This document shows, one piece after another, positions 2,135 through 47,523 of a stretch of 64,000 bases of DNA. The DNA lies in contig CAZIDK010000002.1 of the NCBI GenBank assembly GCA_964537895.1, positions 18,287-82,286 on the forward strand. The letters are read 5' to 3'. Under the pieces are notes generated by a model. The model was not told where the DNA came from and did no database searches. It worked only from the letters and a program-made list of their open reading frames with translations. A program made the position numbers and the translations under genes. Position 1 is the stretch's first letter; every line of letters starts with the position of its first letter. Source of the DNA: an uncultured Gammaproteobacteria bacterium (GTDB taxonomy: Bacteria > Patescibacteriota > Microgenomatia > Levybacterales > UBA12049).

Positions 2135-2962
2135 TCACAGGTTCTTTAAGAAATCAAGCGTTTTTTGCTGTTTTAGAATACTTGCAAGAAGATATCTATT
2201 AGCTTGGAGATTTTGCCTTTCGGCTTCGTTTTTTGCTTGCCGTATTGCTTCCTCCACTTCTTTATCCTCAACGGTTATCTTTTCTTCTTGCGCTATTTTT
2301 TGCAAAGCAAATTCAAGCTTGATATCGTTTTCCGCTTTTTGCTCATATTCTTTTCTTAAATCTTCGGCTTTTCTGCCTGTTGAGCTCAAGTACTGATCAA
2401 GGGTTAGCCCAAGTTTTTTCACTTCGTCAAGAGTTTGGGACAGAAGTCGTTCTACCTCCTGCTCAATTATTATTCTTGGTATTTTAATCTCAACTGAGGC
2501 CAAAATCTCTTTTACAATATCATCAAAACTAACTTGAGGCAGTTCTTTGCCGGGGATAACAATTTTGCTTTTGGCTGTAATTTTTTTGATATTATCTCTA
2601 TAATCACCTAGTTTAATTTCGGGTGCTTCGCACGTAACAGCTATAAATTGCCAGTCTTTTCCTTCTTCCAGTTTTTCAACATGAACCCTTGGGGCGATAA
2701 CGGGGTTTACTTTGTGTTCGTTAATGGCCTGAAGGTAAAATTGAGGTAAAAGCTTTTTTAACACTTCTTCTTTTACTTTTTCTTCGTCAATTTTATCCTC
2801 AACGAGTTTTTTAGGAGCCTTCCCTTTCCTAAAGCCGGGTACTTGCGTATTTTGTGCGTAGCCGCTTACAACAGTTTCCCTGGTTTTTTTAACATCTGCC
2901 CAGGGTATGGTAACCGTAAGGGTAATTGTTTGGTCTTCTTGTTTTTGAATTGCTGCTATCAT
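2135..2962 (-). CDS. tig: trigger factor-like chaperone lacking the PPIase domain
   Basis: N-terminal VPGFRKGKAP ribosome-binding signature and trigger-factor-like C-terminal domain; only 275 aa, so no room for the FKBP PPIase domain. Confidence 0.6.
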   Translation of the reverse strand: MIAAIQKQEDQTITLTVTIPWADVKKTRETVVSGYAQNTQVPGFRKGKAPKKLVEDKIDEEKVKEEVLKKLLPQFYLQAINEHKVNPVIAPRVHVEKLEEGKDWQFIAVTCEAPEIKLGDYRDNIKKITAKSKIVIPGKELPQVSFDDIVKEILASVEIKIPRIIIEQEVERLLSQTLDEVKKLGLTLDQYLSSTGRKAEDLRKEYEQKAENDIKLEFALQKIAQEEKITVEDKEVEEAIRQAKNEAERQNLQANRYLLASILKQQKTLDFLKNL

Positions 2963-5024: not shown

Positions 5025-5095
5025 AGCGGGTAAGGGGAATCGGACCCCTGTACCCTGATTGGCAACCAGGTGTACTGCCATTGTACTATACCCGC
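5025..5095 (-). tRNA. tRNA-Gly (anticodon GCC)
   Basis: Acceptor GCGGGTA/TACCCGC, anticodon stem CCTGG/TCAGG with loop TTGCCAA, U discriminator. Confidence 0.75.
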
Positions 5096-5376
5096 TTCTT
5101 CGCTGCCCTTCGTTGCCTCAGGGCAGGCGCATTATCTTTATTGATCAGTGCAAGCTTCTTATTTCTCGACCAGCTCTTTATTTCATTCTCTCTTCGTAAA
5201 GCCTCGCCCATCGAACTGTAACCTTCAGAGTAAACTAATTTTACAGGTAATTTCCCTTTAATCGATTTTGCACCCCTGATAGATGTATTGTGTTCTTTTA
5301 CTCTTTTTTCAATATTTGATGTAAATCCAGTATATAAAGAATTATCGCTACATCTTACTATATAAACGTAATACAT
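5086..5376 (-). CDS. GIY-YIG domain mini-nuclease (YhbQ-like)
   Basis: MYYVYIVRCSDNSLYTGFTSNIEKRVKEHN; stop overlaps 5' end of tRNA-Gly by 10 nt. Confidence 0.75.
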   Translation of the reverse strand: MYYVYIVRCSDNSLYTGFTSNIEKRVKEHNTSIRGAKSIKGKLPVKLVYSEGYSSMGEALRRENEIKSWSRNKKLALINKDNAPALRQRRAAKKRV

Positions 5377-5625: not shown

Positions 5626-5654
5626 GAAGTGTGCTGAGGATGTGAGTCGAACAC
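5626..5654 (-). repeat. degenerate copy of tRNA-Val(TAC) 3' end (att-like remnant)
   Basis: GAAGTGTGCTGAGGATGTGAGTCGAACAC shares GTGCTGAGG...GAAC with the tRNA-Val 3' end. Confidence 0.45.
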
Positions 5655-5874
5655 ATATAGCCTGTTCTTCAGACAGGTGCCTTGACCACCTTGGCTACCT
5701 CAGCTCGTAATTAAGGTTGTTTTGATGTTTGACGTAGTCAAACACGCATAGTCCCGCCCCGGCGGGATGCCTTTGGTCAACCTTGGCTACCTCAGCTCGT
5801 AAAACATTTTATCAAATCTAGGAACTATACGCTATTCCCTAATATCCAATAACTAGTATCTAGTAACTAAGCTG

Positions 5875-6223: not shown

Positions 6224-6712
6224 ATGAATTGGTTCAAAACATTCAGATTGACTCCCCAACCTCTCCCAGAGACCGTCTCTATTTTATATGATGAGAGCAC
6301 GTTTTACAACAGATTTAGAGAGGATTTATTGGAGGCTAAACAAGAAGTTATTATCGAAAGCCCTTTTATTACTTCGCGGAGACTTGAGATGTTAAAACCG
6401 GTATTTGAAAAATTAATAGCCAGAGGCGTTGAAGTCTTTATTATGACCCGTGACCCTAACGAACATGACGAATCTTTGTCAAAGCAGGCAGAGGCCGGAA
6501 TACACTATTTTGAAGTTTTAGGAGTACAAGTTTTACTATGCGACGGTGGTCATCACCGAAAGTTAGCTATAATTGACCGGAAAGTTCTCTGGGAAGGAAG
6601 TTTAAACATTCTTTCGCAGTCTCATAGCCGAGAATTTATGAGAAGAATTGATAGCAAGAGTTTGACAGAAGAATTATTTAAATTCCTGAAGCTGAATAGA
6701 CATGTTTATTAA
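6224..6712 (+). CDS. PLD-family single-HKD nuclease (Nuc/NucT-like)
   Basis: HHRKLAIIDRKVLWEGSLNI fits the HxK(x4)D(x6)GSxN motif; 162 aa; paralog at 38216..38680. Confidence 0.65.
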   Translation: MNWFKTFRLTPQPLPETVSILYDESTFYNRFREDLLEAKQEVIIESPFITSRRLEMLKPVFEKLIARGVEVFIMTRDPNEHDESLSKQAEAGIHYFEVLGVQVLLCDGGHHRKLAIIDRKVLWEGSLNILSQSHSREFMRRIDSKSLTEELFKFLKLNRHVY

Positions 6713-6769
6713 ATGAGAATCTAAATTAGTTCTACGACTCAAGATATTCGTAATACGACTCAAAGTAGT

Positions 6770-8044
6770 CTATAAAACACAAATTTTTTCTACTTGCCTT
6801 TTTATCTCCGAATTAATTTTACCCATAAGCAACAATCTTAAATTATTCAATCTAAAATATTTTTTGGCAACTCTTCGTACGTCTTGCGAATTAATAGAAT
6901 TTATCTTATTTATTAATTCATCAGGAGTAATAATTTTTCCATCAGTAGACAACTGGGTAGAGTATAGATAAGCTACTGAATCCGTTGTTTCTAAGTCGTA
7001 TTGCAGTCTTGCTCGTATTTTTTCCTTATTAAATTTTAGCTCTTCATTTGAGACTAATTTTGTTTTAATTTTGCTAATCTGGTCTAATATAATTTCTACT
7101 GCTTTAAGAGTATTATGAGGAGAAACTCCAGTAAAAGCGGAGAATAACCCTGTGTCATTATAATTATAATTATATGCTCCTGCCGTATAGGCAATTCCGA
7201 ATCTATATACTAATTCATAAAACAACGTAGAAGTAACACTTCCCCCAAGCATTTCAGCTATTAACATTAGGGTATACTTGTCTTCATTAAAATAATCTAC
7301 CTCAGTAATAAATCCACAATAAATTTGTACTTGTTCTGAGTTAGATTTTATTAAATTCATGTTACTTTTCTTTGGATATGAATTAACAGCTAAAAACTTT
7401 GTACTGCTATTTTTATTTCTCACATTAAAATAGTTTTCAATATAGCTGCTAACCTCTTGCTCTATAAAATTTCCTACAATAACCATATTCATTTTCGAGG
7501 GAACATAAAATTTGCTTAGATATTTTTGAATTTTTGTCTTATTTAAGCTACTTATATTTTTTAGATCTCCAAGAGTAGATCTTCCAATTGATTGATTTTT
7601 ACCCCAAACCCATTCCATCCATTCATCAAATATTTTAACTTCAGGATTATCATTTCTTCTATTTAATTCTTCTATTACTATTCTTTTTTCCTTTTCTATT
7701 GCGGCTTTATCAATAAGTGAATTAAAAAGAATGTCTGAAAGATAAGCGATTGCTTTTTCTACATATTCAGGTAAAATTTTCACATTGTAGGTAACGTATT
7801 CTTTTTCTGTCCACGCTCCGCTCCTACCACCGACGCTTTCAATGTAATTTGCTAATTTCTTTGCATCATTAAATTTATATGTTCCCTCAAATAACATGTG
7901 CTCTAGAAAGTGCGCTAAGCCAGAATCTTTTTTCTCTTCATATCTAGGACCGGCTTTTACAGTTAGAAACACCGATACTGATTTTGATTCGGAGATGGGA
8001 TTAAGTAAGATTTTTAATCCATTCTTTAGTGAATAATTTTTCAT
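6770..8044 (-). CDS. M16 family zinc peptidase (pitrilysin/PqqL-like); candidate RiPP leader peptidase
   Basis: Inverted zinc motif HFLEHMLFEGT (HxxEH); 424 aa; last gene of the YcaO operon. Confidence 0.7.
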   Translation of the reverse strand: MKNYSLKNGLKILLNPISESKSVSVFLTVKAGPRYEEKKDSGLAHFLEHMLFEGTYKFNDAKKLANYIESVGGRSGAWTEKEYVTYNVKILPEYVEKAIAYLSDILFNSLIDKAAIEKEKRIVIEELNRRNDNPEVKIFDEWMEWVWGKNQSIGRSTLGDLKNISSLNKTKIQKYLSKFYVPSKMNMVIVGNFIEQEVSSYIENYFNVRNKNSSTKFLAVNSYPKKSNMNLIKSNSEQVQIYCGFITEVDYFNEDKYTLMLIAEMLGGSVTSTLFYELVYRFGIAYTAGAYNYNYNDTGLFSAFTGVSPHNTLKAVEIILDQISKIKTKLVSNEELKFNKEKIRARLQYDLETTDSVAYLYSTQLSTDGKIITPDELINKINSINSQDVRRVAKKYFRLNNLRLLLMGKINSEIKRQVEKICVL

Positions 8045-8802
8045 ATTTTGCCTACCGTAATTAAGTATAGCGTAAATTCTTTTTGAAAACTTATATCAAG
8101 TAAGCTATCAAATTTACTATCTATAAATCCCCCTATTACGCAACTCCCTAATTTTAATTCTGTTGATAACAAGCAAATATTTTGGGCTAAATGTCCTGCC
8201 TCAAGAAGAGAATATCTGTATCCTCTGTCCCCGTACTTTATTTTAGTTCTATCCAACACGGTTGTTATTATAAATATTACTGAGGATTTTATAGTCCACA
8301 TTTCTTCTCCTAATGCTTTTATCAGCCACTTACGTAAATCCTTTTCTAATAATATCTCTAAAACATTATTTTTAACATTATAATGATATAATCCTTGCTT
8401 TATCCCTTTGCAATTTAATATTAAAGGGTAAATTTCTAAGGGGTATCTCGCTCCTGCGGATGGATAGTTTCTTTTGCTCGAATCGTAATTCTCGTTTTTA
8501 GTAAAGAAACTTATTCCTCCTGCTGTAAATAGTATTTGCGATAAATCTTTTAAATTAATTGGTTCGCCTGTATAATTTCTAATCGAGCGTCTTTTCTGAA
8601 GAATATTTGCAATGTTAGTTTTTTTGGGATTTTTCAATTTTATTTTGTTTAAGCGTGGGTATGTTTTAAAATGGATTTTTACCCATGACTCAGGATAATC
8701 AGAAAGGTTAAAATGTCCCAACGTTTTATTTTCGGTTTTTCTGTGAAATTTTTCAGAGACAGATTTTTTTTCTTGAATTAGTAATTTATTTACGTTACCC
8801 AT
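8041..8802 (-). CDS. SagB-type (McbC-like) FMN-dependent dehydrogenase, nitroreductase fold
   Basis: PSAGARYPLE...RYSLLEAGHLAQNICL...GSCVIGGF typical of TOMM dehydrogenases; 4-nt overlap with neighbours. Confidence 0.7.
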   Translation of the reverse strand: MGNVNKLLIQEKKSVSEKFHRKTENKTLGHFNLSDYPESWVKIHFKTYPRLNKIKLKNPKKTNIANILQKRRSIRNYTGEPINLKDLSQILFTAGGISFFTKNENYDSSKRNYPSAGARYPLEIYPLILNCKGIKQGLYHYNVKNNVLEILLEKDLRKWLIKALGEEMWTIKSSVIFIITTVLDRTKIKYGDRGYRYSLLEAGHLAQNICLLSTELKLGSCVIGGFIDSKFDSLLDISFQKEFTLYLITVGKI

Positions 8803-8804
8803 AA

Positions 8805-10115
8805 TTATAAAAATGGGTGTGGAACTTTATTTAAACCTGCTTCGTTTTTCTTAGTAAATCCTAGTTTAGGAGGAACATCGTATAATCTTTTACTTCCCAA
8901 AAACTTATATTTTTCATTCAGGTACAAAGGCTGCAACTCTGGAATTAAAGTTCTTATTACAAAAAATCCGGCATTTTTTATTACTTTTGGCGTTATGTCT
9001 TTGTAGATTATGTTCATACCATTGTCAATCAACGATTTTAAAGTTTTCTCCAGTTTATTATCAGATTTCTTTTTCGTGTCTATTCTTATAATATTTTTAT
9101 TCTTCAGCCAAAAATTTAAATGCTCTATCATTTGTGTTGGAAACCACAATAATGCTCTTTGTTCAATGTTCTCTATTTTTATGACTTTTTTAGATTTAGG
9201 ATTTATATAGAAAGATTTATCTCTTATCCAAGATCTTGTCATTAAAGATTCCTCGATTGCTCCTATTATACAATTCTTTGTTTCCCATCCGGCTTTAAGT
9301 CCTAATGAAATAGCTGGGCCTAATCCAGTTTTATCAATAACGAGTGCTCCAAACACCGGAATTCCAATATCCATTGTTAAATCCAAAACAAAAACCTCTA
9401 ACTTATATCGTCCTAAAATATCTAATATTTTATCAATCTTAGTATCGTTTAATGATTTTAGATCTATTCTTGGAGAAGGAAGCTTATTAAGATAACTTAT
9501 CACAAAAGCATCTCTTTCAATCGCTTCACATAGGGCTCTATAGAGAGCTTCATCAAAAGTAAGACCAAACGCTGTGCCAGTTGAATTAATAGGCATTATT
9601 TCAGGTTCCCCATCGATTAAAGAGTGATTAAATGATATTAGCTGAGAAGGAATAAGTATCTTCTTGTTTTTATTTAGAAATACAGCTTCACTCCACGAGA
9701 ATTTGGAGCTATTTCTGATTACAAATTTACTATTTTCTCTCTGTTTCAACTGTCTTACGGAAAATGGGGATATTCTTAGTGGCTTTAAATATTGTCCTAG
9801 TTTACTTATTTCTGTAATTGAACCTTTTGCTACGATTTTAGGTTTATAAATATCTAGAGAATATCTTTCGAGCGCTTCTCCCAAGACTTTTACTAAAGCT
9901 AATTTTTTATCAAAAGAGAATCCACTTGCAATATTAAGATTATCTTTACGCTTACTCTTATATTTTATTCCGTAGTTAAATATCTTGGGCTCATCATTAT
10001 ATTGGGGATCTCTATAAATTCCATTTACTATTATGTTTTCTTTTAAAACAAAATCTGCAATTTTGTCTAAAACAGAACACAATCCATTATTGACTAGTAT
10101 ATTTTTACTACTCAT
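8805..10115 (-). CDS. YcaO-domain cyclodehydratase (SagD-like)
   Basis: GEALERYS N-motif, STGTAFGLTFDEALYRALCEAIERDAF ATP-binding/YcaO signature, Pro-rich C-terminus VPHPFL. Confidence 0.8.
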   Translation of the reverse strand: MSSKNILVNNGLCSVLDKIADFVLKENIIVNGIYRDPQYNDEPKIFNYGIKYKSKRKDNLNIASGFSFDKKLALVKVLGEALERYSLDIYKPKIVAKGSITEISKLGQYLKPLRISPFSVRQLKQRENSKFVIRNSSKFSWSEAVFLNKNKKILIPSQLISFNHSLIDGEPEIMPINSTGTAFGLTFDEALYRALCEAIERDAFVISYLNKLPSPRIDLKSLNDTKIDKILDILGRYKLEVFVLDLTMDIGIPVFGALVIDKTGLGPAISLGLKAGWETKNCIIGAIEESLMTRSWIRDKSFYINPKSKKVIKIENIEQRALLWFPTQMIEHLNFWLKNKNIIRIDTKKKSDNKLEKTLKSLIDNGMNIIYKDITPKVIKNAGFFVIRTLIPELQPLYLNEKYKFLGSKRLYDVPPKLGFTKKNEAGLNKVPHPFL

Positions 10116-10145: not shown

Positions 10146-10346
10146 TTATTTTCCTTCAGCAACCCCACAACGTGGTTGAGGAGGTTGAGGAGCACACTTT
10201 GGTGCTGGTCCTCTGCATGGCGCATTTATACATGGGCCTCCTCCGCTGTCTATCTGATCTTGGCCTAGGATAGAAAATTCTTTAGCATCGTTAATCGCAG
10301 CCTCTGTTACTGCTTGAGGCAAAGATATTTCTTGTCTTGCTGGCAT
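10146..10346 (-). CDS. RiPP precursor peptide (leader plus Cys/Pro-rich core), TOMM/LAP-type
   Basis: 66 aa from the ATG with SD GGAGGTG 6 nt upstream (ORF track starts 9 nt earlier at GTG). Leader ...FSILGQDQIDSGGG then core PCINAPCRGPAPKCAPQPPQPRCGVAEGK (4 Cys), immediately upstream of YcaO. Confidence 0.7.
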   Translation of the reverse strand: MPARQEISLPQAVTEAAINDAKEFSILGQDQIDSGGGPCINAPCRGPAPKCAPQPPQPRCGVAEGK

Positions 10347-10389
10347 TTCTATCACCTCCCTTCTTTAAAACTGTTTATTTAATAACACC

Positions 10390-10418
10390 TTGTATCATGA
10401 ATGTCAAACATCTCGTGC
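10390..10418 (-). promoter_or_regulatory. sigma70-like promoter for the precursor/YcaO operon
   Basis: Minus strand TTGACA-N17-TATTAA about 45 nt upstream of the precursor start. Confidence 0.4.
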
Positions 10419-10614
10419 CGGATCAACGATAATACCTTAAAGAAATTTTTTTGAACATACCAGACGCGCTGGATATAAACAGGTTCGAGTCCTGCAATGG
10501 TAGATAAAATTAGCCTCAAGATTTTAGAAGATTATTTTTTAGCTCGAACCTAAGTTTGCTTAATTTAGATTGCTATACCAATCTAAATGTTGATTATTAA
10601 AAAATGTCTTCTAC

Positions 10615-22288: not shown

Positions 22289-22564
22289 ATGTATTACGTT
22301 TATATACTTTTTTCAGCGGCTGACAGGCAACTCTATACAGGTTTTACAGATAATCTTCGTTCAAGAGTTAAGGCGCATTCGGGTGGTTATGTAAGAGCGA
22401 CAAAAAACAGAAGGCCCTTAAAGTTAATTTATTACGAAGCATATTTAAGAGAATCAGACGCGAGAAAAAGAGAAAAGTATCTAAAGGGTGGAAATGGTAG
22501 GGGTGAGATGAAAATTCAATTGAGAGAAATTTTGGAAGAGTTGAAGTATAGAAATTTACAATGA
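22289..22564 (+). CDS. GIY-YIG domain mini-nuclease (YhbQ-like)
   Basis: MYYVYILFSAADRQLYTGFTDNLRSRVKAH; 120 nt downstream of tRNA-Arg. Confidence 0.75.
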   Translation: MYYVYILFSAADRQLYTGFTDNLRSRVKAHSGGYVRATKNRRPLKLIYYEAYLRESDARKREKYLKGGNGRGEMKIQLREILEELKYRNLQ

Positions 22565-38215: not shown

Positions 38216-38680
38216 TTGAAAGTAGCGAGGAGGATTCCAGTGTTTAACTCCTCTCTTTACGATGAAACAACTTTTTATAGTGCTTTTTTGAGAGATTTAG
38301 AGACATGCAAAGAGGAAGTTTTTATTGAGAGTCCGTTTATTACTCAAAGAAGGGCTCAACAGTTAATTCCTGTATTTAATAGGCTTTTGTCTAAGGGAAT
38401 AAAAATTTATGTTATGACCAGAGATCCAAAGGAGCACGAAGAAGGTATGGAATATCAGTCAGAAGATACGATAAGAACATTTGAGATTATGGGAGTTCAA
38501 GTCTTGCTATGTGTTGGTAATCATCACAGAAAACTAGCAATCCTTGATAGAAAAATACTTTGGGAAGGAAGTCTTAACATCCTTTCCCAAACACAAAGCC
38601 GGGAAATAATGAGAAGGATTGAAAACAAGGAGCTGACAGAAGAAATGTTTAGTTTTTTGAATTTGAGCAGATTTTTATAA
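38216..38680 (+). CDS. PLD-family single-HKD nuclease, paralog 2
   Basis: NHHRKLAILDRKILWEGSLNILSQ; aligns end-to-end with 6224..6712. Confidence 0.65.
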   Translation: MKVARRIPVFNSSLYDETTFYSAFLRDLETCKEEVFIESPFITQRRAQQLIPVFNRLLSKGIKIYVMTRDPKEHEEGMEYQSEDTIRTFEIMGVQVLLCVGNHHRKLAILDRKILWEGSLNILSQTQSREIMRRIENKELTEEMFSFLNLSRFL

Positions 38681-42309: not shown

Positions 42310-42323
42310 AGGAGGTGAAATAA

Positions 42324-42488
42324 ATGAAATTTTATAACGTTAAGACAAGACAACCAGTAGAAATAGATGACAGTAAAGTAACAGTTGTAACAATGAAAAA
42401 CGGTAAAAAAGCAGCAAAAGCAGAAGACAATGGAGTTGGACTTTTTAAGATATTAAGTAACGAAGATGCAGCGAGACTATCAAAATAG
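42324..42488 (+). CDS. small protein (54 aa)
   Basis: Strong SD AGGAGGTG 6 nt upstream; MKFYNVKTRQPVEIDDSKVTVVTMKNGKKAAKAEDNGVGLFKILSNEDAARLSK; followed by two hairpins. Confidence 0.45.
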   Translation: MKFYNVKTRQPVEIDDSKVTVVTMKNGKKAAKAEDNGVGLFKILSNEDAARLSK

Positions 42489-43049: not shown

Positions 43050-43667
43050 TTAATTCCCACTTCCCAAAAATACTCTCGGATTTACAGGTAATCCAAATAC
43101 ATTTATTTGAAAATGTAAATGTGGTCCCGTTGACCAACCTGAACTTCCCTCTAAAGCAATAATATCCCCGGGTTTTACTTCTTGTCCCGGATATACAAAT
43201 ATTTTGTTTAAGTGACCGTAGAGTGAAGTTATATTATCTCCATGATCAATAATAATATGTTTTCCGTATCCCCAGAATATTTCTCCTGCATATATTACTT
43301 TACCCTTCATAAAAGGAGTAATCGGATCTCCCTGCAAACCATATGGATTAGCAATATCAATTCCTGTATGAAAGATCTGATAAGGCCAGTCTGATTCTCC
43401 GAATTCAAGAGTAATTACACCTTTAACAGGCCATGTAATCACAGGCTTAATTTCTTTTATCACCTCTCCCGTTAACGGGTCATAAATCTGAATTGTATTT
43501 GTTTTGGAATCAAAAGAGGTTAATGAATCTGAAACTATATTTACTCCAACATTCATTAAAATAATAACGGCAATAATGGGAAGTGAAATTGCTATTAAGA
43601 ATGAAAGGATTACAAGTTTGAGTTCTCTTCTAAAATTCCAGAGATTTATAAATTTAAATATAATCAT
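43050..43667 (-). CDS. M23 family metallopeptidase
   Basis: HTGIDIA (HxxxD) and GPHLHFQI (HxH) motifs. Confidence 0.75.
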   Translation of the reverse strand: MIIFKFINLWNFRRELKLVILSFLIAISLPIIAVIILMNVGVNIVSDSLTSFDSKTNTIQIYDPLTGEVIKEIKPVITWPVKGVITLEFGESDWPYQIFHTGIDIANPYGLQGDPITPFMKGKVIYAGEIFWGYGKHIIIDHGDNITSLYGHLNKIFVYPGQEVKPGDIIALEGSSGWSTGPHLHFQINVFGLPVNPRVFLGSGN

Positions 43668-44926
43668 GCAGAATATATTTCTCTAGGATCTGTTGTAAGT
43701 AGTGGATGTTCTTTGTCGGATGCAACTACTTTTAAAGCAACATGATTCTGATCCGCAATTATTAAAGCCTCTCCTTTGTCGCAGGTTAAAAGAAAATGCT
43801 GTTCATATTCACTTAAATTAAATTCACTGGCAACTTTTTTAATGGTGGTTGTATCCTGTTTCATTAAGATCCTTAAAGAAGACTGCGAAGCAATCGCTCT
43901 TCCGTAGTCTTGAGAAAGAAAATCATTTGCCTGTTGGGAAATAATAGTTACTCCTAAATAGTATTTTCTTGCCCGTCTTGTAAGGCCTGCGATAAATCTT
44001 GCGCTTTCTTCGTGAGCAAGTAATATCCATCCCTCGTCAATTACAAGTATTCTTTTTTGCGGATTTAGTTTTACTTGTGAATTGACAAAGTTTGCAACTA
44101 CCATCATCATAACTTGTCTTAATGATTCGTCTAAATCTTTAATGTCAAAAACAACAAGCCTGTTTGATAGCTCGATATTTGTATGTTCATTAAATACGCT
44201 AGACAGGGAACCCTTAATATATTTCTCAAGTTTTTGGCTTAATTTCTTCTGTTTAAGCTGTTTAAGTGTTTTATAAAAATCTTTAAGTAGCGGATATGTT
44301 TTTTGTTTTGGTTTTCTGCCCCTAGTGTCTTTTTTCTTTTTCGGTTTATAACCGGGGTTTAATAGCCAGCCGAAATTTTTATATGTTTGAATGATTGCCT
44401 TATCAACAATTCCTTTTTCTTCTGCACTTAATCCTCCAATCATAAGAGAGATAATTTCAGTTAAGTCTTGAACATGTTCTGAAAGTTCACTCTCTCCGTT
44501 TTTAAGATTAATAGATAAATCAAAAGGATTAATTTTTTCTTTTGATTTGGTTGATAATTTTATATACGTTCCGTTTACGGAATTAGTTAATTGTTTGTAT
44601 TCCCGTTCCGGGTCAATGACAATTACTTTTGTTTGCTGCATAAGTTGTCTTAATATTTCTACTTTTGCGGTGTAGCTTTTTCCACTTCCGCTTTGTGCAA
44701 AGATTATGCTGTTTGCGTTATTTAAGGAAAACCTGTCAACAATAACAAGCGAGTTATTTGACTTATTAATGCCATACAAAATTCCTGATTCCTGTACCAG
44801 CTCTGATGAAACAAAAGGAAAAGTAAGAGCAGCCGAAGAACTGTCTAAATTTCTTTTTTGGGAAAGTTGGTTTTCTCCTCTTGGTAAAACGGATTGTAAT
44901 CCTTCAAGCTGTTGAAAGCTTTTCAT
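43664..44926 (-). CDS. VirB4/TraC-like ATPase, C-terminal domain only
   Basis: AQSGSGKSY Walker A, VIDEGW Walker B; only 420 aa vs about 800 for a full VirB4. Confidence 0.5.
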   Translation of the reverse strand: MKSFQQLEGLQSVLPRGENQLSQKRNLDSSSAALTFPFVSSELVQESGILYGINKSNNSLVIVDRFSLNNANSIIFAQSGSGKSYTAKVEILRQLMQQTKVIVIDPEREYKQLTNSVNGTYIKLSTKSKEKINPFDLSINLKNGESELSEHVQDLTEIISLMIGGLSAEEKGIVDKAIIQTYKNFGWLLNPGYKPKKKKDTRGRKPKQKTYPLLKDFYKTLKQLKQKKLSQKLEKYIKGSLSSVFNEHTNIELSNRLVVFDIKDLDESLRQVMMMVVANFVNSQVKLNPQKRILVIDEGWILLAHEESARFIAGLTRRARKYYLGVTIISQQANDFLSQDYGRAIASQSSLRILMKQDTTTIKKVASEFNLSEYEQHFLLTCDKGEALIIADQNHVALKVVASDKEHPLLTTDPREIYSA

Positions 44927-45040
44927 ACTCTCTTAGGCAGGTGGACAGAAGCTATAAAATTATTGAGCGAAGTATATCACAAACGTGTTACCGATGTATC
45001 TCATCTTCTGCATGCATTTCAAACCAAATTTTTTGGAGGT

Positions 45041-45430
45041 TTATCTTTCCCAAACTTTATCTTCTGGAGCGAAATCAACTTGATGTTCAGGAATTCCAAT
45101 AGAAATACCATATTCCTTAGCATCTTTGTAAAGCACAGGATTGTTTAAATCAACTTTAAAAATTTTAGCTCTGTAAATTATGTAATGGTATTTATCATTT
45201 TTATAATCGGCGTACCATTTATGTTCTTTGTCCAATGAGTTACTTATTTCATTTGCGATGTCGCCTGCACTTTCTTCGAGAACTTCAACTGTGTCCAATG
45301 TCCATTGTAAAAGCCAAGGAGTCTTATGTTCCGAGGTAACCTTTTCAGTCTTTGTGCTTAATACGTTAACTTTATTTAGAACCGATTTATCATCCAAACT
45401 TTCTTCAATAATTACGCCTTTAAAATTCAT
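45041..45430 (-). CDS. hypothetical protein
   Basis: 129-aa ORF. Confidence 0.4.
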   Translation of the reverse strand: MNFKGVIIEESLDDKSVLNKVNVLSTKTEKVTSEHKTPWLLQWTLDTVEVLEESAGDIANEISNSLDKEHKWYADYKNDKYHYIIYRAKIFKVDLNNPVLYKDAKEYGISIGIPEHQVDFAPEDKVWER

Positions 45431-45590
45431 AACCTAATTATATCATCCGAGTCTGCAAAACCAAATTTTCCGGTGTATTTATCACCATTAATTGTTGTTA
45501 AAACCTAGAGTATTTAGCCCCTTGACAGCTATTCCTATAAGGGATATATTATAAATATAGTTATAATATGAAGCTAAATTCTGCACCATC

Positions 45591-45791
45591 ATGAATCAAA
45601 TAGAATTGATAAATCAGGCTCAAGATAAAGTTAAAAAAGTAGGCAGAAAGGTTAAGCTTGCAATATCAACTTTATCCCCGGAAGAACGATTAGATTCCTT
45701 AGCAAATATCGTTATTGAGCGAATTCTTGAAGAAAACCAAAACCCCAAATTACCAGCAATACCAACTAATAAAGGAGATTTAACCATATGA
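45591..45791 (+). CDS. small protein overlapping the recombinase start (candidate directionality/accessory factor)
   Basis: 66 aa, 4-nt overlap with the recombinase gene. Confidence 0.35.
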   Translation: MNQIELINQAQDKVKKVGRKVKLAISTLSPEERLDSLANIVIERILEENQNPKLPAIPTNKGDLTI

Positions 45792-47512
45792 GTGAACCAT
45801 TATTATTAAATAACGCAGTAGCAGCGATTCGTATATCTTCAACCAAGCAAGGCTTGCAAGGCGATTCCCCACAAGCGCAAAAAGAGCAAATAGAACAATT
45901 TGCTATTGCTCACAATATAAACGTCAAAAAGTTCTTTATTTTTATGGAATCTGCGTCAAAAGAAGTGCAACCTGTGCAAGAGGCTATAGACTATTGTAAG
46001 AGCCCAAAAAACGATATACAGCTATTTATAATCAAATCCATAGATAGATTCACTAGGGGCGGTTCATACCTCTACGATCATCTTAAAATGCAGCTTACCC
46101 GTCATAATGTAAAGCTTATTGATATTTATGGCATTATCAGCAATCAGGAGGTTAATACGCTTGAGCATTTGGGACTTCAATATGATTGGAGCGTCTATTC
46201 TCCTACCAAAAAGTCTGAAATTTTAGAAGCAGAACGAGCTAAAGACGAGATTCGAGATATCTTAAGCAGAATGATAGGTGCTGAAATTAGATACGTTAGA
46301 ATGGGCTACAGAGTCAGACCGGCCCCTTTTGGTTATATGAATGAAAAAATAGATACTCCTCACGGAAGAAGAGTAATTCTAAAGCCAGACACTACGGAAG
46401 CGCCATTAATTATTAAAATGTTTGAACTAAGGACTAAGAAAACCTTAACGGATGAGGAAATTGTCAAAGAGGTTAATAAAATAGGATATAAATCCAGAGT
46501 TCATTTATTAAGAGACGGTAAGGATAAGACAATAGTAATAGGACAAAGGGGCGGTATAAAACTTGATGTAAAACGATACGTAGAATACATTCGAAAACCA
46601 ATTTACGCAGGAATAAACGATGAAAAGTGGACCAATAACGAACCAGTTAAAACAAAATTTCCGGGATTAGTTTCTGTAGAAACGTTTAATCAGGCAAACA
46701 GAGGAAAAGTTGTCCTGTCGGAAGAAAACGGAGGGATAACTATTTATAAAAACATGCCTGAAGAATGGAGACTGAGAAAATCCGTCAAAAATCCTGATTA
46801 TCCTTTTAAGCGATATGTTCTTTGTCCAACTTGCAGATATCCGTTATATGGCAGTGCTTCAAGAGGCAGTAACGGAACACGCTACCCTGCATATCACTGT
46901 AATAAAAGAAATCATTATTTCAGAGTAACCGTAGAAACATTTGAGCAAACTATTAAAAACTTCGTAAGTAAAGTCAGAGTTACGAAGGATGGCGTAGATA
47001 AACTAAAAGAAAGAGTATTAAAAAAATGGCAAGATAATCTAATTAAAGGTCAGCTAGATGTTGAAACTATCGATGAGAAAATTAAAAAATTAGATGGTGA
47101 GAAAACACTAATCGGAAACCAAATACCAAGACTTACATCTGATGAAGGCATTAAGCTAATGGAAGAAAAATTAAGCGAAGTTACAAACGAGATTAAACAA
47201 TTAACTGAAACTAAAACAAAACAAGAAGATTTAAATGTAAATATGGAGATAGTTTTGGCAATAGTTGGGGAATTTCTGGAAAACTTATCGTTTTTATTGC
47301 TAGGAAGCCCTAATCCTCTTAAGAGAGCAGCCTATTTTGGACTTATATTTGAACAGACTCCAACCTATCAAGATCTAATTTCTGGAACTGCTCAATTAGC
47401 TCCCTATTTCGAGCTAATCGATGATGCAGGGTATCCAAACCCCGCTACTGTGAGCCGCCTGAGAGTCGAACTCAGAACCTATTCCTTAAGAGGGAATTGC
47501 TCTGCCAGTTGA
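45788..47512 (+). CDS. large serine recombinase (resolvase/invertase N-domain, recombinase domain, zinc ribbon)
   Basis: AIRISSTKQ catalytic Ser region, SIDRFTRG, CPTCRYP...YHCNKRNH zinc ribbon; last ~20 codons are read through the tRNA-Lys complement. Confidence 0.75.
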   Translation: MSEPLLLNNAVAAIRISSTKQGLQGDSPQAQKEQIEQFAIAHNINVKKFFIFMESASKEVQPVQEAIDYCKSPKNDIQLFIIKSIDRFTRGGSYLYDHLKMQLTRHNVKLIDIYGIISNQEVNTLEHLGLQYDWSVYSPTKKSEILEAERAKDEIRDILSRMIGAEIRYVRMGYRVRPAPFGYMNEKIDTPHGRRVILKPDTTEAPLIIKMFELRTKKTLTDEEIVKEVNKIGYKSRVHLLRDGKDKTIVIGQRGGIKLDVKRYVEYIRKPIYAGINDEKWTNNEPVKTKFPGLVSVETFNQANRGKVVLSEENGGITIYKNMPEEWRLRKSVKNPDYPFKRYVLCPTCRYPLYGSASRGSNGTRYPAYHCNKRNHYFRVTVETFEQTIKNFVSKVRVTKDGVDKLKERVLKKWQDNLIKGQLDVETIDEKIKKLDGEKTLIGNQIPRLTSDEGIKLMEEKLSEVTNEIKQLTETKTKQEDLNVNMEIVLAIVGEFLENLSFLLLGSPNPLKRAAYFGLIFEQTPTYQDLISGTAQLAPYFELIDDAGYPNPATVSRLRVELRTYSLRGNCSAS

Positions 47513-47523
47513 GCTAGCGGCCC
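47451..47523 (-). tRNA. tRNA-Lys (anticodon CTT)
   Basis: Acceptor GGGCCGC/GCGGCTC, anticodon stem ATTCC/GGAAT with loop CTCTTAA, T-loop TTCGACT. Confidence 0.7.

What the first reader, a model, noticed from the sequence alone, without database searches (positions are those of the whole stretch)
10146..10418. Precursor peptide gene with strong promoter and ideal SD; start codon mis-set in ORF track
The ORF track starts the precursor at a GTG. An ATG 9 nt downstream is preceded by GGAGGTG at optimal spacing, and a TTGACA-N17-TATTAA promoter lies about 45 nt upstream. The region upstream of that (10.42-10.61 kb) is non-coding, so the cluster probably carries its own promoter. The core contains the motif C-x3-P-C-x-G-P-A-P-K-C-A-P-Q-P-P-Q-P-R-C, in which every Cys is flanked by small residues or Pro. 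This is a good substrate context for azoline formation.
Basis: partly seen in the sequence, partly recalled or inferred. Interest (0 to 1): 0.6.

Follow-up and report, generated by a model that had tools for sequence, protein, structure and literature searches.

The report
Azole-peptide precursor gene, own promoter
This is a real 66-residue precursor-peptide gene with its own conserved promoter and ribosome-binding site, heading a compact four-gene thiazole-peptide cassette in a Levybacteria-like ultrasmall (CPR) bacterium; the cluster type was already reported bioinformatically in 2020, but none has been tested experimentally.

Summary
On the minus strand, an ATG at 10346 follows GGAGG by 8 nt. 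The GTG at 10355 lies inside that Shine-Dalgarno sequence. TTGACA-N17-TGT-TATTAA lies at 10407-10379. The gene encodes a 66-aa peptide whose core, PCINAPCRGPAPKCAPQPPQPRCG, carries four Cys.

Downstream, tightly packed on the same strand, are a SagD-type YcaO, a SagB-type dehydrogenase and an M16 peptidase with an intact HxxEH motif.

Related loci settle the reading. 22 non-redundant precursors lie directly upstream of homologous YcaO genes. They share a D-A-K-E-F leader motif, a Pro/Cys-rich core and GGAGGTGA-N5-6-ATG. dN/dS is 0.11-0.38. In four homologues the GTG cannot serve as start codon. A perfect TTGACA sits about 60 nt before the ATG in 11 of 21 loci, although the flanking genes differ.

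The best explanation is a self-promoted operon for a linear azole-containing peptide (LAP) with four thiazoles. This cluster type (YcaO + nitroreductase + peptidase + precursor) was already described bioinformatically in Microgenomates by Sharrar et al. 2020, so this is a new member of a known kind.

One point is unresolved. No E1-like or ThiF-like partner, or leader-binding RRE domain, was found in the cassette, in its enzymes or in the 64-kb window.

The parts
10402..10407 (-). -35 hexamer TTGACA
   Evidence: Read directly. Invariant in the window, L001, L003 and L004. A perfect TTGACA at the same distance in 11 of 21 related loci.
10379..10387 (-). Extended -10: TGT + TATTAA, 17-nt spacer after the -35
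   Evidence: The -10 matches TATAAT at 4 of 6 positions. Homologues carry TATTAA, TATTTA or TATAAT at this place, mostly preceded by TG.
10353..10359 (-). Shine-Dalgarno GGAGGTG. Its last three bases are the GTG that the ORF track used as start codon.
   Evidence: GGAGGT is conserved in 18 of 22 precursors.
10146..10346 (-). Precursor peptide gene, 66 aa plus stop: MPARQEISLPQAVTEAAINDAKEFSILGQDQIDSGGGPCINAPCRGPAPKCAPQPPQPRCGVAEGK
   Evidence: dN/dS 0.11-0.38. It is the only such ORF in the window.
10275..10289 (-). Leader motif D20-A-K-E-F24, the proposed recognition sequence
   Evidence: Invariant in close homologues and conserved in 22 precursors and in 13 further representatives.
10149..10235 (-). 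Core region P38-K66 with Cys39, Cys44, Cys51 and Cys60, the predicted thiazole sites
   Evidence: The Cys are invariant. The core is Pro/Cys-rich across the family. The leader/core boundary is inferred, not shown.
8805..10115 (-). YcaO cyclodehydratase, SagD/TOMM type, 436 aa, no fused RRE
   Evidence: AlphaFold2 model pLDDT 88. Best structural matches are the YcaO domains of LynD, MusD and TruD.
8041..8802 (-). SagB-type FMN dehydrogenase, 253 aa. It starts 2 nt after the YcaO stop.
6770..8044 (-). M16 metallopeptidase, 424 aa, with HFLEH at residue 45. It overlaps the SagB stop by 4 nt. Predicted leader peptidase.

Best explanation
The feature is the first gene of a self-contained four-gene operon (precursor, YcaO, SagB dehydrogenase, M16 peptidase). 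The operon makes a linear azole-containing peptide in a Levybacteria-like CPR bacterium.

**Expression.**
- Transcription starts a few bases downstream of a sigma-70-type promoter (TTGACA-N17-TGnTATTAA) that travels with the cassette.
- Translation of the precursor starts at the ATG at 10346, from a near-perfect Shine-Dalgarno sequence. This probably gives far more precursor than enzyme, because the YcaO gene has no comparable ribosome-binding site.

**Modification (inferred).**
- The N-terminal leader, with its conserved D-A-K-E-F motif, recruits the enzymes.
- The ATP-dependent YcaO cyclodehydrates the four conserved Cys of the Pro-rich core to thiazolines.
- The FMN-dependent SagB enzyme oxidises them to thiazoles, for a net -80 Da.
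- The M16 peptidase removes the leader, probably near the conserved Gly-Gly-Gly before Pro38.

**Shown here:** the gene is real and under purifying selection; the start codon; conservation of the promoter and Shine-Dalgarno sequence; the enzyme families; the linkage of the four genes.

**Inferred:** the chemistry, the cleavage site, the transcription start, and direct leader recognition without a partner protein.
For: - **Sequence anatomy:**
- **Enzyme families above curated cut-offs:**
- **Tight packing:** the gaps between genes are 30 nt, 2 nt and a 4-nt overlap. There is no hairpin between the precursor and YcaO.
- **Conserved cassette:** the same four-gene cassette with a homologous small ORF sits in unrelated contexts. 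These are ParE/VIT1/cupin in L001, downstream of fusA in L007 (a tuf-like gene lies about 3.4 kb beyond the cassette), after frr in L009, and others.
- **Conserved precursors:** 22 non-redundant precursors share the DAKEF leader, a Pro/Cys core and GGAGGTGA-N5-6-ATG. 13 more representatives turned up among 1.84 billion proteins.
- **Selection:** dN/dS is 0.11-0.38.
- **Promoter footprint:**. TTGACA-type promoters are enriched in this genome, with 17 found against 5.07 expected.
- **YcaO active-site motifs:** the ExxER motifs are invariant (E80/E83/R84 and E197/E200/R201).
- **Peptidase motif:** the M16 HxxEH is intact in all 8 homologues checked.
- **Literature:** the same architecture is reported as a LAP cluster in Microgenomates (PMC7298704).
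Against: - No experiment exists for any member of this clade.
- The -10 hexamer lacks the normally conserved final T, and CPR promoters are uncharacterised.
- The upstream tRNA-Leu genes are on the same strand, so read-through transcription cannot be excluded.
- LAP YcaOs in most cases need an E1-like or ThiF-like partner (PMC7136475). None was found here.
- The residues before the Cys are P, P, K and R, not the small residues preferred by some characterised cyclodehydratases (from my own knowledge).
- The YcaO ends in PHPFL, not the canonical PxPxP (PMC12338566).
- No exporter or immunity gene is linked to the cassette.
Confidence: 0.8

Rival explanations
1. The cassette is not self-sufficient. 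An E1-like or ThiF-like partner carrying an RRE is encoded elsewhere in the genome and is needed for leader binding, as in classical LAP systems.
For: Partner proteins are the rule for azoline-forming YcaOs (PMC7136475). Only 64 kb of this genome and about 10 kb around each homologue were inspected.
Against: The four genes move together through many unrelated contexts in about 1-Mb genomes without any fifth conserved neighbour. No ThiF, E1 or RRE hit appears in any of about 55 window proteins. Stand-alone YcaOs are known, for example in bottromycin biosynthesis (PMC7136475 and PMC4603692).
Confidence: 0.3
2. The YcaO performs different chemistry on the peptide (thioamide or amidine formation, or backbone cleavage as MusD does), or the Cys serve as metal or disulfide ligands rather than thiazole precursors.
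For: YcaOs catalyse several amide-activation reactions. The closest PDB sequence match is MusD, which has peptidase activity (PMC10885120). The C-terminal motif is PxPxL rather than PxPxP.
Against: There is no TfuA. The YcaO scores above the cut-off for the SagD TOMM model. A SagB-type azoline dehydrogenase is translationally coupled to it in almost every homologue, which makes sense only if azolines are made. The Cys are the conserved core residues.
Confidence: 0.08
3. The TTGACA/TATTAA match is not a functional promoter, and the operon is transcribed by read-through from the upstream tRNA-Leu genes on the same strand.
For: The tRNA-Leu(gag) gene ends 268 nt upstream of the ATG on the same strand. 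The -10 is imperfect and was missed by the consensus scan. Only a weak AU-rich hairpin lies between them (z = -1.85).
Against: The motif keeps its sequence and its distance to the ATG in loci whose upstream genes are entirely different, including loci with a divergent gene upstream (L001). Conservation stops exactly at the -35.
Confidence: 0.12
4. The GTG at 10355 is the true start codon (69-aa product), or the ORF is not a gene at all.
For: The GTG is the first start codon after the in-frame stop.
Against: The GTG lies inside the Shine-Dalgarno sequence and has no Shine-Dalgarno sequence of its own. It is out of frame, absent, or followed by a stop in L005, L021, L025 and L090, whereas the ATG is kept. 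dN/dS of 0.11-0.38 and conservation in 22 loci rule out a spurious ORF.
Confidence: 0.03

Closest known systems
CPR LAP clusters of Sharrar et al. 2020 (Microgenomates_ANG_785, plus 110 clusters in 93 CPR genomes; PMC7298704)
   Same: The gene set is the same: a precursor next to YcaO, a nitroreductase-type dehydrogenase and a peptidase. The host group (Microgenomates) is the same, and so is the predicted chemistry.
   Different: That report is bioinformatic only and shows an 84-aa precursor. According to the passages I searched, it does not describe the DAKEF leader motif, the Pro-Cys core, the conserved promoter and Shine-Dalgarno sequence, or the missing partner protein.
Cyanobactin heterocyclases LynD, TruD and MusD (PDB 4V1T, 4BS9, 7U58)
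   Same: These are the closest solved relatives of the YcaO. The HMM aligns query residues 10-434 to LynD residues 351-775. Foldseek gives E = 2.6e-26 and TM 0.77.
   Different: Those enzymes carry about 350 extra N-terminal residues, including the RRE that binds the leader. The protein here is the YcaO domain alone. The products are also different (macrocyclic cyanobactins).
Microcin B17 synthetase McbBCD and other classical LAPs (streptolysin S, plantazolicin, klebsazolicin, phazolicin)
   Same: They share the precursor + YcaO (D) + SagB/McbC-type dehydrogenase (B) logic, and McbD and McbC are detectable relatives.
   Different: They require an E1-like C protein (McbB, SagC) or a fused C domain. 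Their leader peptidases are TldD/E (M103) or others, not M16 (PMC10885120). Their cores are Gly/Ser/Cys-rich rather than Pro/Cys-rich.
Stand-alone YcaOs of bottromycin biosynthesis
   Same: The YcaO acts without an E1-like or ThiF-like partner.
   Different: Bottromycin uses a follower peptide rather than a leader, and has no SagB dehydrogenase. One of its YcaOs makes a macroamidine. The enzymes are a divergent YcaO type, whereas the YcaO here passes the SagD (TIGR03604) cut-off.

Membership tests
LAP / TOMM biosynthetic cluster | Small precursor gene with an N-terminal leader and a Cys/Ser/Thr-bearing core, adjacent to the modifying enzymes | tested here: met
   66-aa ORF 30 nt upstream of YcaO, with 4 conserved Cys in the C-terminal 28 residues.
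LAP / TOMM biosynthetic cluster | YcaO cyclodehydratase of the TOMM (SagD) type with conserved ATP/Mg-binding ExxER motifs | tested here: met
   TIGR03604 scores 242.9 bits against a cut-off of 219.25. E80/E83/R84 and E197/E200/R201 are invariant in 20 homologues. That these residues bind ATP/Mg is from my own knowledge.
LAP / TOMM biosynthetic cluster | C-terminal PxPxP motif of azoline-forming YcaOs | tested here: inconclusive
   The protein ends ...VPHPFL, that is PxPxL. H433, P434 and L436 are invariant in the clade. The motif is described in PMC12338566.
LAP / TOMM biosynthetic cluster | E1-like (C) or ThiF-like (F) partner, or a fused RRE domain, for leader recognition (present 'in most cases') | tested here: not met
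   There is no such gene in the cassette in the loci examined. No ThiF, E1 or RRE hit appears in about 55 proteins of the window. The YcaO is the YcaO domain only. The N-terminal 55-60 aa of SagB have no PDB match and are too short for an RRE. The rest of the genome was not available.
LAP / TOMM biosynthetic cluster | FMN-dependent SagB/McbC-type azoline dehydrogenase | tested here: met
   TIGR03605 scores 149.2 bits against a cut-off of 78.4. The profile matches CyaGox, a SagB-type dehydrogenase-domain protein (8PZ5), McbC and BmdC.
LAP / TOMM biosynthetic cluster | Azol(in)e rings in the mature product, and no macrocycle | not testable with these tools
   This needs mass spectrometry or NMR of the product.
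CPR LAP clusters (Sharrar et al. 2020) | YcaO + nitroreductase + peptidase + adjacent precursor in a CPR/Microgenomates genome | tested here: met
   TypA of the window is 90% identical to a Candidatus Levybacteria protein. The description is in PMC7298704.
Sigma-70-type bacterial promoter | -35 TTGACA, 16-18 nt spacer, -10 TATAAT (with A at position 2 and T at position 6) | tested here: inconclusive
   The -35 matches 6 of 6 and the spacer is 17 nt. The -10 TATTAA matches 4 of 6 and has no final T, but carries an extended -10 TG. The consensus scan did not list it. Its position and sequence are conserved in homologues.
Sigma-70-type bacterial promoter | A mapped transcription start site | not testable with these tools
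   No transcript data are available.
M16 (pitrilysin/insulinase) metallopeptidase acting as RiPP leader peptidase | HxxEH zinc-binding motif and both M16 domains | tested here: met
   PF00675 and PF05193 both hit. HFLEH is at residue 45 and is conserved in 8 of 8 homologues. Cleavage of this leader is not testable here. M16 enzymes are documented for class III lanthipeptides, not for LAPs.

The most novel reading that the evidence does not exclude
The CPR/DPANN YcaO-SagB clade may be a minimal azole synthetase that needs no partner protein. On this reading the YcaO (or the YcaO-SagB pair) binds the short D-A-K-E-F leader motif directly, with no E1-like, ThiF-like or RRE domain. It installs thiazoles at Pro-Cys sites and produces a proline-rich polythiazole peptide. 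By analogy with phazolicin, klebsazolicin and proline-rich antimicrobial peptides, that product might act on the ribosome of the host or of competitors of these episymbionts. The analogy is pure speculation.
Probability: 0.4. Interest if true: 0.6.

Novelty: new member of a known kind. Interest (0 to 1): 0.35.

Why it matters
CPR bacteria have about 1-Mb genomes and very few biosynthetic clusters. A 3.7-kb, self-promoted, four-gene azole-peptide cassette that hops between genomic contexts is a compact and easily synthesised target for heterologous expression.

The comparative data here give three practical things:
- the correct start codon and leader/core layout for 22 or more precursors;
- a candidate leader recognition motif (DAKEF);
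- a clear test case for whether a SagD-type YcaO can work without an RRE partner.

The existence of such clusters in Microgenomates is already published, so the finding mainly refines and extends known annotation.

Tried and rejected
- **Genome scan with the single YcaO.** The scan of genome contigs found no relative. The alignment-based scan worked.
- **tRNA fragment or att site.** I suspected one at about 10465-10500 because of a T-arm-like GGTTCGAGTCC on the plus strand. Rfam at E <= 1 found no tRNA there, and no direct repeats flank the cluster. The idea was dropped.
- **Weak Rfam hit.** A match to DUF2693 RNA at 10334-10412 scored 17.7 bits against a gathering score of 81.3, E = 0.69. It is a chance match driven by the TTGACA promoter-like start of that model.
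- **Attenuator or terminator.** I looked between the precursor and YcaO and after the M16 gene. No structure beats the shuffles.
- **Family hits for the precursor.** Pfam and NCBIfam give none.
- **Consensus promoter scan.** It did not report the site because it requires T at position 6 of the -10.
- **Hidden RRE.** The whole YcaO model aligns to YcaO domains only. The SagB N-terminus carries a conserved P-x-S-W-x-K-I-x-F-K-T-Y-P-R segment that has no PDB match and is too short for an RRE.
- **Burkhart 2017 Chem Rev.** This paper is not held in the library.
- **Source record.** The window's own NCBI record could not be retrieved. Lineage was inferred from TypA instead.

Full report
**1. The observation**

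Reading the minus strand, the ORF listed mechanically is 10146..10355, 69 aa, starting at GTG.

- **Start codon and Shine-Dalgarno.** The sequence is aaGGGAGGTGATAGAAATGcca. The GTG at 10355-10353 forms the last three bases of the GGAGGTG Shine-Dalgarno sequence. The ATG at 10346 follows GGAGG after an 8-nt spacer. GGAGGTGA-N5-ATG occurs twice in the window, against 0.00 expected.
- **Promoter.** Upstream lie TTGACA (10407-10402), 17 nt, then TGT-TATTAA (10387-10379). The exact pattern occurs once, against 0.02 expected. That pattern was chosen after seeing the site, so the number is only indicative.
- **Consensus scan.** The generic scan did not list the site, because it demands a T at the last -10 position.
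- **Promoter type in this genome.** TTGACA-N16-18-TAnnnW is enriched: 17 found against 5.07 expected, and no shuffle out of 100 reached 17. This genome therefore appears to use this promoter type.
- **Upstream region.** Between the promoter and pyrD there are only two tRNA-Leu genes. No gene is called there on the identical contig L002.

**2. Surroundings**

Three genes follow on the same strand:
- a 436-aa YcaO at 8805-10115 (PF02624; TIGR03604 SagD family, 242.9 bits against a cut-off of 219.25);
- a 253-aa SagB dehydrogenase at 8041-8802 (TIGR03605, 149.2 bits against 78.4);
- a 424-aa M16 peptidase at 6770-8044 (PF00675 + PF05193).

The gaps between genes are 30 nt, 2 nt and a 4-nt overlap. 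No hairpin separates the precursor from YcaO.

The window is 36% GC and carries 15 tRNA genes. Its TypA is 90% identical to a protein named Candidatus Levybacteria. The host is therefore a Microgenomates/CPR bacterium.

**3. Is the small ORF a gene, and where does it start?**

- **Homologues.** The peptide has 66-aa homologues in metagenomes. Alignment identity is 64-69%, and the four Cys plus DAKEFS are invariant.
- **Conserved linkage.** On the longer homologous contigs the ORF heads the same YcaO-SagB-M16 set, while the flanking genes differ:
  - ParE/VIT1/cupin in L001;
  - downstream of fusA in L007, with a tuf-like gene about 3.4 kb beyond the cassette;
  - after rpsB-tsf-frr in L009;
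  - toxin-antitoxin genes in L012.
- **Wider survey.** A YcaO alignment retrieved 80 loci from species-representative genomes. They come mostly from Patescibacteria, with some DPANN archaea and a few haloarchaea. Several records labelled 'uncultured Gammaproteobacteria' look like placeholder names; that is my inference.
- **Partner genes.** YcaO and SagB are adjacent in nearly all loci. The M16 follows in the closer clade.
- **Precursor set.** 22 non-redundant small ORFs lie directly upstream of YcaO. They share a D-A-K-E-F leader motif and GGAGGTGA-N5-6-ATG. Their cores hold 4-8 Cys and 5-22 Pro, and Pro-Cys recurs.
- **More distant loci.** These have DVIEF or DTIEF leaders and Cys/Gly/Asn/Ser-rich cores.
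- **Exhaustive profile search.** A search of 1.84 billion representatives found 15 members of the narrow subfamily.
- **Selection.** Pairwise dN/dS is 0.11-0.38.
- **The GTG.** It is out of frame in L005, followed by an in-frame TAA in L021, and absent in L025 and L090. The ATG is always present.

The ATG start and the coding status are therefore well supported.

**4. Promoter**

Aligning the window with L001, L003 and L004, TTGACA, AGTG[T/G]TATTAA and the Shine-Dalgarno-ATG block are conserved. Similarity vanishes immediately 5' of the -35.

Across 21 loci, 11 have a perfect TTGACA whose 5' end lies about 55-65 nt before the ATG. Their -10-like hexamers are TATTAA, TATTTA, TATAAT and others, and about half are preceded by TG. 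In 10 loci, at most 4% of shuffles score as well.

In L007 the promoter sits in the short spacer after fusA. The cassette therefore carries its own promoter. This is a phylogenetic footprint, not a mapped transcription start.

**5. Mechanism**

Shown here:
- The YcaO has invariant ExxER motifs.
- Its AlphaFold2 model (pLDDT 88) superposes over its full length on the YcaO domains of LynD, MusD and TruD (TM 0.77).
- The SagB profile matches azoline oxidases.
- The M16 has an intact HxxEH motif in 8 of 8 homologues.

Inferred from what is established for LAP pathways (PMC7136475; PMC7298704):
- ATP-dependent cyclodehydration of the four Cys;
- FMN-dependent oxidation to thiazoles;
- removal of the leader by the M16.

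**6. The open point**

Azoline-forming YcaOs normally work with an E1-like or ThiF-like partner that carries the leader-binding RRE. I found none:
- none in the cassette, in any of the loci examined;
- none fused to the YcaO, since query residues 10-434 align to LynD residues 351-775, i.e. the part after its RRE/E1-like domains;
- none recognisable in SagB, whose N-terminal 55-60 aa have no PDB match and are too short for an RRE;
- none among about 55 proteins of the window.

No transporter or immunity gene is linked either. Stand-alone YcaOs are known, as in bottromycin biosynthesis, but they belong to a different YcaO type. Whether this clade is truly partner-free cannot be decided without whole genomes or biochemistry.

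**7. Comparison and novelty**

Sharrar et al. 2020 (PMC7298704) described a Microgenomates cluster with YcaO, nitroreductase, peptidase and an adjacent precursor. They also found 110 LAP clusters in 93 further CPR genomes.

The present locus is a new member of that known, purely predicted kind. Four details were not found in the literature searched:
- the DAKEF leader;
- the Pro-Cys core;
- the portable promoter and Shine-Dalgarno sequence;
- an M16 as a LAP leader peptidase.

These are refinements rather than a new category.

**Verdict.** Interest is modest (0.35).

Noticed in passing
window 5688-5710 and 5780-5802: A perfect 23-nt direct repeat. Its first copy overlaps the 5' end of tRNA-Phe (5631-5704, minus strand). 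It could be a remnant of an insertion or duplication at the tRNA.
   Followed up: no
window 43050-47523: Three neighbouring genes: an M23 peptidase, a TraG-like P-loop ATPase (43664-44926) and a 574-aa serine-recombinase-like protein (45788-47512). The mechanical ORF of the recombinase overlaps tRNA-Lys (47450-47523, opposite strand). This may be an integrated mobile element next to tRNA genes.
   Followed up: no
window 5086-5376 (-) and 22289-22564 (+): Two small stand-alone GIY-YIG proteins (96 and 91 aa), each next to tRNA genes. A GIY-YIG gene also lies near the cassette in L010.
   Followed up: no
window 6224-6712 (+) and 38216-38680 (+): Two small PLD-like (PLDc_2) paralogues of 162 and 154 aa. 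The first is convergent with the end of the LAP operon.
   Followed up: no
window 42311-42488 (+): The only other perfect GGAGGTGA-N5-ATG in the window heads a 54-aa ORF (MKFYNVKTRQPVEIDDSKVTVVTMKNGKKAAKAEDNGVGLFKILSNEDAARLSK). The ORF lies between an SDR gene and a Fur-family gene.
   Followed up: partly
window 10563-10588 (-): A 10-bp AU-rich hairpin lies about 27 nt after the 3' end of tRNA-Leu(gag), between the tRNA genes and the LAP promoter. z = -1.85, and 12 of 200 shuffles fold as well. It may be a weak terminator or processing signal.
   Followed up: partly
window 6725-6766: An imperfect 21-nt tandem repeat (76% identity) in the 57-nt spacer between the convergent PLD-like gene and the M16 stop. 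It has no significant fold.
   Followed up: partly
L017 1460-1954: One related locus carries two tandem DA(R/K)EF-type precursor genes with different cores upstream of its YcaO.
   Followed up: no
L005 3765-4880 and L009 7598-8722: In two related loci an M50 (RseP-like, PDZ-containing) peptidase gene directly follows the M16 gene. This is either shared chromosomal context or an accessory gene.
   Followed up: no
window 2135-2962 (-): The trigger factor is only 275 aa. It has N- and C-terminal domains but no PPIase-domain hit.
   Followed up: no
L013-L092 record titles: Many contigs that encode this CPR-type YcaO are titled 'uncultured Gammaproteobacteria', 'Bathyarchaeota' or 'Chloroflexia' in TPA assemblies. 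The neighbouring hits are Patescibacteria, so these are likely placeholder or wrong taxonomic labels.
   Followed up: no
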